Shown here one piece after another: positions 16,815-18,999 of a DNA stretch of 26,154 bases. How positions within the stretch are numbered: the first letter of the stretch is position 1; every line of letters starts with the position of its first letter. The DNA comes from a virus. Its lineage: Duplodnaviria; Caudoviricetes. The DNA lies in IMG/VR virus record IMGVR_UViG_3300028377_000051, positions 1 to 26,154 of that record. One strand, 5' to 3'. Position numbers and translations under genes: made by a program. The notes below the pieces were generated by a model that had not been told where the DNA came from, did not search any database, and was given only the letters and a program-made list of their open reading frames with translations.

Positions 16815-16820
16815 TTTTTG

Positions 16821-16839
16821 AGTAGTAGTAGTAGTGATT
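16821..16839 (+). repeat. (AGT)5 microsatellite ending in TAGTAGTGATT
   Basis: AGTAGTAGTAGTAGTGATT in the 3' UTR; shares 11 nt with the capsid-leader motif. Confidence 0.7.
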
Positions 16840-16845
16840 TTTGAC

Positions 16846-16880
16846 AGGCCTCCTTATTTTAAGGGGGTTTTTCTTTTTTT
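16846..16880 (+). terminator. Intrinsic terminator
   Basis: AGGCCTCCTTA-TTT-TAAGGGGGTTT stem followed by TTCTTTTTTT. Confidence 0.85.
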
Positions 16881-16891
16881 GTAAAATAAGA

Positions 16892-16933
16892 TTTAATTTA
16901 TTTGGTAGCTATATTTATTATTGCTATATTTGC
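16892..16933 (+). promoter_or_regulatory. Rightward sigma-A promoter (42-bp repeat copy 2) driving the non-coding region
   Basis: TTTG 16901-04, N20, TATATTTG 16925-32. Confidence 0.85.
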
Positions 16934-16936
16934 ATT

Positions 16937-17464
16937 GTGAGAGATATTGTATCTTTCTAGTAACAACGGTAATCAAACCATTACACCCTTATCAGTCACC
17001 TTGAAAAAGTGCATGTGGGGTCAGAAGTCGGGTTAATAATTGCAGGATTGAAATAATATCTAAACATAGCGATGAAGTTCTCCCCGATAGTTACGGAAAA
17101 TTGCCTAAATATAAGCAGGAGGGCACGATAAGACGATACGGACTGAAAAGGGTAGTATTGCAGTGTGTGGGTGTAAAGAGAAGTCAACGAAATTTCTCAA
17201 ACGTACAGCTCCTTAGTGAAAGTTTAGGTTGAAATCGCCACTAAGTAATTAGAAGGTCAATAGATTATGAAAATTTTCTAAAGGGGTTTCCTCTGTCCAA
17301 CACACAAACACAACAACAGTTTTTCACTCTAACGCATTTTCGGTTTTATACAGTACTTAACACTACAAGTAGAGTGAACTAAAACGGATATTGTTACAAG
17401 CGAAGTTACGGTTTAACGGTGTGTTTCTAACCGACTCTTTGCGGTCTGGGAATTCCTATTTTTT
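16937..17464 (+). ncRNA. Candidate large structured non-coding RNA (about 500 nt), family unknown
   Basis: Own promoter, no + strand ORF of 60 aa or more, higher GC than flanks. Nested helices 16957-66/17391-400, 16979-97/17141-60, 17163-73/17294-305, 17178-84/17192-98, 17212-18/17239-45, 17249-57/17273-81, 17323-31/17370-78. Confidence 0.65.
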
Positions 17465-17486
17465 ATCTAAGTTTTAACAGTTTTTA

Positions 17487-17518
17487 TTTGGTATTATGAC
17501 TAAATATGCTTATATTTA
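17487..17518 (+). promoter_or_regulatory. Sigma-A promoter for the helicase operon
   Basis: TTTG 17487-90, N20, TATATTTA 17511-18. Confidence 0.7.
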
Positions 17519-17541
17519 TATATTAAAAAATATTTGTAAAA

Positions 17542-18999
17542 ATGTACAAACCTTATCCAATACAACAGTTAGAGATTGATAAAATCACAGAGTTTATAAA
17601 AAAGGATACTAACAGAAAAGCTGTATTTGCTTATCCAGTTTCTTTTGGTAAAACAATACTTATAGCAAATGTTGCTATCAACTTTCCTAACAAATACTTT
17701 ATAAATGTAGCACCTAATAAAGAACTAGTAGAACAGAACCACGAAACCTATACTTCGTATGGATATGATGCGTCTATTTGTTCAGCTTCCTTAAACTCTA
17801 ATGAAGTTTCTCAAGTTACGTTTGCAACTATTGGTACTCTTAAAAAACACATAGACTTTTTCAAAGATAAGGATGTAATTTTATTACAAGACGAAGCGCA
17901 TGACAGTTCACTCAAAAAAAGTGAGATAGGTAAGTTTTATAAACAGTTAAAAAAGTGCAAACTGCTCGGTTTTACCGCAACTCCTATGAGACTAAACAAC
18001 TCTGCAAGCGGAACTAAACTGTCAATGATGAATAGACAGAAAGATTGTATTTATAGCTCCATAGAAAGCGTCATACAAGTTTCCGATGTGATAGATAATA
18101 ACATGTGGTCAAAGCTTGTGTATGACGTTGAAAACGTAGATGAGAGTAAATTAAAATTAAACACAACAGGATCAGATTATACTTTAAAATCTCTAGAAGC
18201 TTTTTCTGAAGCTAATAATATAGTCCAAAAATGTGTAGAATCTGTTTACAGGTTAAGAGAAGAAGATAGAGAGAGTTGTATCGTGTATGTTACTTCAATA
18301 GATGAAGCAGAAAGAGTGGCTTCTAAAATAGAAGATTCTGCAGTATTGCATTCCAAACTAAAAAAAACAGAAAGAGATAGGGTAATTACAGAATTTAAGG
18401 CAGGTAATATAAAAACTGTTGTTAACGTAGGAATTCTAAAACAAGGTTTTAATTATCCAGAGCTTTCCTCTATTGTTTTTGCTCGTCCTACAAATTCTTA
18501 TACACTTTATTATCAAGTTCTTGGTAGAGTTATACGTAAACACGAAGATAAAATAGATGGCAAGGTCATAGATATTTCTGGTAACTACAATAAGTTTGGA
18601 GCGATAGAAGACCTAGAATTTATAAATGAAGAGTGGTGCGGTGGTTGGGCGGCTTTTAGTGGCAACAGACTGCTTACAGGTTACGCTTTAGGGGGAAGTT
18701 TAGTACCTACAAAGCAAAGTTTAAAACACTATTTTAATGAGGTAACAACAGGAGATAATTTACCCAAAGACCCTAAATTTAATTTTGGTAAACACAAAGG
18801 AGTTCCTGTTTCAGTAGTTAAGAGAAAACACGAGAGTTATTTATTCTGGATAGTAGATCCTGAAACAAAATTTACGTTCAGAGGAAAAAACGGATTGGCA
18901 CTTAAAAGAGCTATATACCGACAACTAAAATTGCCTTTGAACAAACTAAGAGATGTAGATTTAGATTATAGTAAATCTCAATTACCTTTTAATTTATAA
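17542..18999 (+). CDS. SF2 DEAH helicase (UvsW/RadD-like)
   Basis: YPVSFGKT, QDEAH, FTATP, LKQGFNYP, YYQVLGRVIR motifs; C-terminal FNFGKHKG...YLFW module. Confidence 0.9.
   Translation: MYKPYPIQQLEIDKITEFIKKDTNRKAVFAYPVSFGKTILIANVAINFPNKYFINVAPNKELVEQNHETYTSYGYDASICSASLNSNEVSQVTFATIGTLKKHIDFFKDKDVILLQDEAHDSSLKKSEIGKFYKQLKKCKLLGFTATPMRLNNSASGTKLSMMNRQKDCIYSSIESVIQVSDVIDNNMWSKLVYDVENVDESKLKLNTTGSDYTLKSLEAFSEANNIVQKCVESVYRLREEDRESCIVYVTSIDEAERVASKIEDSAVLHSKLKKTERDRVITEFKAGNIKTVVNVGILKQGFNYPELSSIVFARPTNSYTLYYQVLGRVIRKHEDKIDGKVIDISGNYNKFGAIEDLEFINEEWCGGWAAFSGNRLLTGYALGGSLVPTKQSLKHYFNEVTTGDNLPKDPKFNFGKHKGVPVSVVKRKHESYLFWIVDPETKFTFRGKNGLALKRAIYRQLKLPLNKLRDVDLDYSKSQLPFNL

What the first reader, a model, noticed from the sequence alone, without database searches (positions are those of the whole stretch)
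16937..17464. Candidate novel ~500-nt highly structured phage ncRNA with its own promoter
Seen: in a genome that is otherwise almost fully coding, this stretch has no + strand ORF, is GC-richer than its flanks, starts after a consensus sigma-A promoter (16901-16932) downstream of a terminator, and ends before the helicase's own promoter. Hand folding gives mutually compatible nested helices. A closing stem CTAGTAACAA/TTGTTACAAG (16957-66/17391-400) joins the ends. Domain 1 is closed by ACCCTTATCAGTC/GACTGAAAAGGGT (16985-97/17141-53, extendable) and holds a CTT-GAAA-AAG tetraloop, GGGG..AGAA/TTCTCCCC and TGCCT/GGGCA stems. Domain 2 is closed by 17163-73/17294-305 and holds four hairpins. Domain 3 is TTCACTCTA/TAGAGTGAA (17323-31/17370-78). 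Many pairs are G-U, which favours a + strand RNA over a DNA cruciform. Inference: a large multi-domain RNA comparable in scale to phage-borne ROOL/GOLLD-type RNAs. I do not see tmRNA, RNase P or group I intron hallmarks.
Basis: partly seen in the sequence, partly recalled or inferred. Interest (0 to 1): 0.9.

Follow-up and report, generated by a model that had tools for sequence, protein, structure and literature searches.

The report
New structured RNA of Bacteroidota phages
The gene-free gap holds a roughly 340-base element whose base-paired fold is conserved across about 70 related sequences from phages, prophages and islands of Bacteroidota bacteria, including crAss-like gut phages; it matches no Rfam family, is predicted to be made as its own RNA, and likely acts by binding a protein partner that is still unknown.

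Summary
Single-sequence folding is no better than shuffles (z=+0.89). Homologue searches gave about 70 distinct relatives (my tally) in Lightbulbvirus-like phages, including cultured Cellulophaga phage phi4:1, and in crAss-like phages, prophages and islands. The core 17027-17088 covaries strongly: 11 of 15 pairs are compensatory, and 0 of 500 shuffles match it. Three long-range helices pass a partner-swap test. Conservation spans about 16958-17298. A Bacteroidota promoter sits at the 5' end here and in many relatives. Neighbouring genes vary and are sometimes convergent. Rfam has no match. Transcription is not shown. Best reading: a stand-alone accessory RNA that likely binds a protein in trans; ribozyme, antiterminator and packaging roles remain open. 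The scan had not noted this RNA before. Two bulk candidate catalogues could not be read.

The parts
16846..16878 (+). Intrinsic-terminator-like hairpin and U run that ends the upstream 96-aa gene
16901..16932 (+). Bacteroidota sigma-A-type promoter (TTTG, 20-nt spacer, TATATTTG); predicted start near 16938. A weaker second -7 box at 16950-16957 would start the RNA at P0
   Evidence: the consensus is recalled, and the term appears in search listings
16958..17298 (+). Conserved structured RNA, about 340 nt
   Evidence: collinear with L235, L236, L486, L509, L453, L257, L289; no substitution in 16942-17372 in 4 of 4 runs
16960..17094 (+). P0: 5'-terminal helix 16960-16964 with 17090-17094, closing domain 1
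   Evidence: partner-swap test, 24 members, 0 of 5000 permutations as high
16985..17021 (+). Pa helix 16985-16989 with 17017-17021
   Evidence: 5 of 6 pairs compensatory in 13 short-form members
17027..17088 (+). Core: P1 17027-32/17083-88; loop-E-like internal loop (motif name recalled); P2 17039-43/17069-73 with a constant U-G pair; P3 17045-48/17058-61 with a GNRA-like loop and an A-rich linker. The P3 module is missing in short-form members
17103..17229 (+). Domain 2: Pc 17103-10/17222-29, Pd 17117-21/17209-13, a hairpin with a conserved purine-rich loop (17135-17159) and conserved boxes at 17169 and 17201
   Evidence: RNAalifold on 8 relatives predicts Pc and Pd; swap test strong for Pc and marginal for Pd, p=0.055; the inner hairpin was read by eye
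17237..17257 (+). Pg hairpin with a GUAA tetraloop
17280..17298 (+). Conserved 3' box (AAAGGGG) that marks the family's 3' end
17299..17464 (+).
   Evidence: 9 variable sites in 17373-17455
17542..18999 (+). Downstream DNA helicase, 54% identical to that of Cellulophaga phage phi4:1, with its own promoter-like repeat at 17483-17517

Best explanation
This is a conserved, covarying structured element of about 340 bases that is predicted to be transcribed as a stand-alone RNA from the Bacteroidota promoter in front of it and that likely works in trans, as a compactly folded accessory RNA binding a host or phage protein as a decoy or scaffold during infection. Shown by comparison: the helices, the + strand, the modular build (P3 module optional, peripheral hairpins variable), the promoter at the 5' end and the lack of a fixed partner gene. 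Inferred: transcription, tertiary folding, the protein partner and any benefit to the phage. I put the existence of a structured RNA at about 0.9 and the protein-binding mechanism at about 0.4.
For: Core covariation in 31 sequences: 95.7% of cells paired against 79.9 +/- 1.2 shuffled, 11 of 15 pairs compensatory, slid controls at most 52.6%. RNAalifold gives the same structure unaided. Short forms: 97.3% paired, 11 of 17 pairs compensatory. A model built only from 13 short forms finds the window at E=5e-9. A model built without the phi4:1 subgroup finds it at E=2e-8 to 2e-12. P0, Pa and Pc pair better with their own partner than with swapped ones in 24 members. A constant U-G pair in P2 (31 of 31) would be a C-A mismatch on the other strand. 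A strict TAnnTTTG box lies within 45 nt of P0 in 7 of 21 members against a background of 0.03, and a relaxed box lies 10-15 nt before P0 in 12 of 21. Neighbours differ: helicase, holin, amidase, RNA ligase, DUF559, NUMOD4-HNH, integrases. The next long ORF is convergent in L288, L233 and L378, and in L295 beyond a 70-aa ORF. No credible match in 8 complete phage records, which fits an accessory role.
Against: No transcript is shown. Folding energy is ordinary: z from -2.4 to +1.1 in 16 members, +1.1 for the window's type. One near-identical contig (L001) changes the conserved G of the P3 loop. Members were found with sequence patterns, so invariance at pattern positions is built in, and related sequences inflate the counts. 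I chose the search windows for P0, Pa, Pc and Pd after looking at the sequences. Nothing tests protein binding. The position 7-9 kb upstream of the portal gene, on the same strand, in 5 of 5 crAss-like contigs fits a cis or packaging role as well.
Confidence: 0.4

Rival explanations
1. A cis-acting leader or put-like antiterminator: the nascent RNA modifies RNA polymerase or controls the long operon it heads.
For: It begins right at a promoter. It heads the terminase-portal side in 5 of 5 crAss-like contigs (with locus positions). It often sits at a strand switch.
Against: The downstream ORF is convergent in several members, and downstream genes share no function. In the window the helicase has its own promoter-like repeat, and the RNA faces away from the portal operon.
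Confidence: 0.17
2. A new ribozyme class, self-cleaving or tRNA-processing, with its active site at the conserved junctions.
For: Conserved unpaired junction bases. The long-form core resembles twister in layout (recalled). tRNA genes lie nearby in phi4:1, L486, L490 and L509.
Against: No Rfam ribozyme model scores on it. The twister-like P3 module is absent from 13 short forms. No pseudoknot signal in the one test made (p=0.50). ARAGORN found no tRNA in 18 of 19 member loci or regions, although Rfam and reading by eye found some that it misses.
Confidence: 0.13
3. A packaging or virion-assembly RNA, or an RNA-only multimer like ROOL and GOLLD cages.
For: Position ahead of the portal module. 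A possible 6-8 bp loop-loop pairing in gut crAss-like members, read by eye. ROOL and GOLLD are phage and prophage RNAs near tRNA islands that form cages (PMC12286853, passages).
Against: Not found in crAss001, phi14:2, ProJPt-Bp1, IAS virus or two complete Lightbulbvirus-like genomes. Present in a small tRNA-linked island and in a transposon-rich region without virion genes in the stretch read. It is about half the size of ROOL.
Confidence: 0.15
4. A DNA element: a replication origin, or an RNA primer for one.
For: It lies at the GC-skew minimum and strand switch, just upstream of a helicase.
Against: One-strand G-U pairs, GNRA-type loops, compensatory changes and a promoter exactly at the 5' end are RNA features. 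The skew follows gene strand. The helicase is not a constant neighbour. One phage contig has two different copies 44 kb apart.
Confidence: 0.08

Closest known systems
ROOL and GOLLD RNAs (PMC12286853, passages read)
   Same: Multi-domain structured non-coding RNAs of phages and prophages, often near tRNA genes, accessory, of unknown function.
   Different: No Rfam match. About 230-400 nt rather than 600-800 or more. Seen here only with Bacteroidota-type phages and genomes. No pseudoknot or multimer contact shown.
raiA motif RNA (PMC10861870, search listing only; structural details recalled)
   Same: Similar size class, multi-junction fold with loop-E-like motifs, stand-alone transcript of unknown biochemistry.
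   Different: raiA is a chromosomal RNA of Bacillota and Actinomycetota (recalled). This family is carried by mobile elements and had a match in at most 2 of 150 sampled Bacteroidota genomes per search.
Twister ribozyme (recalled)
   Same: Layout of the long-form core: helix, internal loop, short helix, hairpin and A-rich linker.
   Different: No Rfam hit, no pseudoknot evidence, and the hairpin module is dispensable.
HK022 put antiterminator RNAs (recalled)
   Same: Structured RNA at the very start of a phage transcription unit.
   Different: Much larger; downstream genes can be convergent; no sequence likeness tested beyond Rfam.

Membership tests
ROOL / GOLLD | Match to the Rfam covariance models | tested here: not met
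   No hit at E<=1 in the window, at E<=10 in 16880-17540, or at the RNA in 20 and 17 member loci
ROOL / GOLLD | Length of about 600-800 nt or more | tested here: not met
   Conserved span about 340 nt
ROOL / GOLLD | Phage or prophage location, often near tRNAs | tested here: met
   tRNA linkage only in some members
ROOL / GOLLD | RNA-only multimeric cage | not testable with these tools
   Needs cryo-EM or mass photometry
tmRNA | tRNA-like domain and tag reading frame | tested here: not met
   ARAGORN found none; Rfam none
RNase P RNA / group I / group II intron | Match to Rfam models of the catalytic core | tested here: not met
Twister and other known self-cleaving ribozymes | Match to the Rfam model | tested here: not met
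   the same search did detect a RAGATH-1 hammerhead elsewhere in L257
Twister and other known self-cleaving ribozymes | Self-cleavage | not testable with these tools
   Bench assay needed
Riboswitch / cis leader | Constant position upstream of same-strand genes of one function | tested here: not met
Endonuclease-associated RNAs (HEARO, omega RNA) | Constant adjacent nuclease gene | tested here: not met
   Nuclease domains beside L223, L260, L276, L302 and L429 only, of different families, among the 45 and 64 ORFs scanned
Fremin 2021 and 2023 candidate structured RNAs | Overlap with a listed candidate alignment | tested here: inconclusive
   The 2023 alignment archives could not be opened; the tables searched held none of the terms; the 2021 supplements gave no answer

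The most novel reading that the evidence does not exclude
An undescribed class of functional RNA with its own fold and new biochemistry, either a ribozyme or an RNA that reprogrammes host machinery or virion assembly, shared across crAss-like and Lightbulbvirus-like phages and Bacteroidota islands from salt lakes to the human gut.
Probability: 0.25. Interest if true: 0.9.

Novelty: new variant of a known kind. Interest (0 to 1): 0.72.

Why it matters
Few multi-domain phage RNAs are known, and each one studied closely (ROOL, GOLLD, theta ribozymes; the last recalled) brought new structural or catalytic biology. This family has deep covariation and natural long and short forms that mark a dispensable module. 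It occurs in crAss-like phages of the gut, sea and fresh water. A divergent member sits unannotated in a cultured phage (Cellulophaga phage phi4:1, about 91790-92120), so expression, structure and deletion can be tested now.

Tried and rejected
Folding z-scores gave no support. blastn of the window against 50,697 phage records found only promoter-like chance hits. Queries from L086, L368, L260 and L429 found nothing meaningful in phages, nor L295 in plasmids. No RNA holder was listed among sequencing runs, which is no evidence either way. Dropped as chance: 47 of 90 distinct pattern-plus-profile rows at E>=2.5e-5; about 25 of 51 sources unmatched, which include five known divergent members (L005, L010, L097, L233, L368); a phi13:2 hit inside gp068; a crAss001 hit in coding-like DNA. 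L432 is doubtful: it lacks P1 and looks like the antisense of a gene. A pseudoknot between the bases before Pa and the domain 2 loop looked good by eye but failed a crude swap test (p=0.50). tmRNA, RNase P, intron, twister and hatchet likenesses were considered from memory and found no Rfam support. Literature searches found no description. The preprint 10.64898/2026.10.21.760802 has one Bacteroidota passage, on a PhoH2-linked RNA (passage); its supplements are closed. A final script to tally loci and to compare Pa with Domain 1 in close relatives could not run, so those two points rest and on reading by eye.

Full report
Setting. The window is a 26-kb fragment of a phage related to Cellulophaga phages phi4:1 and phi17:2 (Lightbulbvirus): helicase 54% and capsid protein 42% identical. 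Near-identical DNA occurs in lake-water and salt-lake metagenomes. The finding lies where the leftward terminase-portal-capsid module meets the rightward replication module.

Checking the observation. The gap has no + strand ORF, follows a terminator-like hairpin and a promoter of Bacteroidota type that is repeated in front of two neighbouring genes (consensus recalled). On its own the stretch folds no better than shuffles (z=+0.89), and Rfam and ARAGORN find nothing. The sequence alone therefore did not establish a structured RNA.

Finding relatives. Loci fetched through the helicase showed a non-coding element at the same place in phi4:1, L010 and L079; a profile of those three hit the window at 17030-17079 (E=0.006). 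Pattern scans of viral, metagenome and genome collections, filtered with a profile, gave 90 distinct rows. Of these, 43 scored E<=1.2e-6 and 47 were dropped at E>=2.5e-5; phi4:1 made 44. Model searches added L429, L430, L431, L444 and L512. L444 lacks the hairpin I had used as anchor. A last scan on the flanking helix gave 64 loci, among them 13 distinct short forms and about 10 new long forms. My tally is about 70 distinct sequences, many closely related within subgroups.

Structure. For the core I aligned 31 of the 44 (left out: 4 with a loop insertion, 5 of the phi4:1 subgroup, 1 truncated and 2 near duplicates; the window replaced its 2 near copies). Three helices have 95.7% of cells paired against 79.9% shuffled, 11 of 15 pairs change on both sides, no shuffle of 500 reaches the values, and slid controls fall to 35-53%. 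RNAalifold returns the same structure. In 13 short forms, Pa, P1 and P2 give 97.3% and 11 of 17. Longer-range helices were seen by eye and tested in 24 members by swapping partners between members: P0 13.1 against 10.9, Pa 14.4 against 11.6 and Pc 15.0 against 13.0, each above all 5000 permutations; Pd p=0.055; a suspected pseudoknot p=0.50. RNAalifold on 8 collinear relatives predicts Pc, Pd and Pg with 12 of 20 pairs compensatory. Cross-checks: the short-form model, built without the window, finds it at E=5e-9, and the long-form model, built without the phi4:1 subgroup, finds that subgroup. The short-form model does not find that subgroup, so it may be a divergent branch or another scaffold that shares the P2-P3 module. 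Caveats: patterns fix some letters, relatives are not independent, and I chose the helix windows.

Domain 1 crosses or shares bases with P0, Pa, Pc and Pd; Domain 2 crosses Pc and Pd; the closing stem competes with P0 for one arm. By eye, only about four to six pairs of Domain 1 survive in the closest relatives. Against my reading, the energy model strongly prefers Domain 1 in this one sequence, so a misfold or a switch in this phage is possible. In four runs there is no substitution in 16942-17372 but there are nine variable sites in 17373-17455, and Domain 3 is broken in all four and in 6 of 6 contigs that cover it. These may be the same samples. One contig has three changes inside the conserved part, one at a conserved loop G. 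The conserved RNA is thus about 16958-17298.

Gene context. A strict promoter box lies within 45 nt of P0 in 7 of 21 members (background 0.03), and a relaxed one 10-15 nt before P0 in 12 of 21, so the 5' helix likely starts at the transcription start. Neighbours vary and are sometimes convergent. The element occurs in a prophage of a Prevotella MAG, in a small tRNA-linked island and in a transposon-rich region. Among sampled Bacteroidota genomes it had 2, 0, 1, 1 (doubtful) and 1 new matches in five searches of about 150 each. Five viral contigs tested, three of them gut-type contigs of 64-96 kb, carry the same portal family as the window and have the RNA 7-9 kb upstream of it on the same strand. 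The window has the RNA facing away from the portal. No credible match was found in crAss001, phi14:2, ProJPt-Bp1, IAS virus (short-form model only), phi13:2, csAssE-Sib or two complete relatives.

How it likely works. An independent promoter, a protected 5' end, a conserved 3' box, no fixed partner gene and a patchy spread over mobile elements point to a trans-acting accessory RNA. Conserved unpaired bases at junctions point to a tertiary fold that something recognises. I commit to protein binding as decoy or scaffold (0.4), ahead of cis antitermination (0.17), packaging or cage RNA (0.15), ribozyme (0.13) and DNA origin (0.08). None of these functions was tested.

Comparison and novelty. It behaves like ROOL and GOLLD in setting but fails membership by model and size (PMC12286853, passages only). 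No Rfam family matched the RNA in 37 member loci. Eight literature searches found no description. I read the first fifth of PMC10690425 and the first part of one of its tables; its candidates are 29-151 nt, and its alignment archives could not be opened. The supplements of PMC8040213 gave no answer, and those of the 2026 preprint are closed. A piece of this RNA may therefore be listed in a bulk catalogue without characterisation. Verdict: a real and apparently undescribed RNA family within a known loose kind; interest 0.72.

Noticed in passing
L443 and L444 (G584, 47560 and 3040): One phage contig carries two different family members 44 kb apart: a phi4:1-type long form and a short form at the position syntenic with the window.
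   Followed up: partly
L474, L450, L462, L471, L477, L487: In gut crAss-like members the loop of the 5' hairpin is complementary over 6-8 bases to the domain 2 hairpin loop, a possible kissing contact, seen by eye.
   Followed up: no
L103, L105, L219, L333: An 8-nt insertion turns the P3 loop into a further small hairpin with a GCAA tetraloop.
   Followed up: no
L005 3764-3849, 4640-4900 and 5285-5400: phi4:1 has unannotated tRNA-like pieces after its tRNA array (weak tRNA-Sec and tmRNA scores) and a short promoter-to-terminator unit just before the RNA. L010 and L079 also have a short terminated unit there.
   Followed up: no
L257 354-417, - strand: A RAGATH-1 hammerhead ribozyme about 800 bases from the RNA.
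   Followed up: no
window 16820-16836: A three-base repeat that varies in length between strains.
   Followed up: no
L079 3752-6352: The helicase relative is 866 aa with a long insertion; a similar 838-aa relative (P0008) carries intein and LAGLIDADG Pfam domains.
   Followed up: no
L235, L236, L444, L509, after the 3' box: Large-phage members share a second downstream element with GGCGG/CCGCC arms that the window lacks in this form.
   Followed up: no
L223, L429, L497: An endonuclease gene (DUF559 in L223, NUMOD4-HNH in L429, a similar-looking ORF in L497 by eye) starts shortly after the RNA's 3' end, which hints at occasional nuclease-aided mobility.
   Followed up: partly
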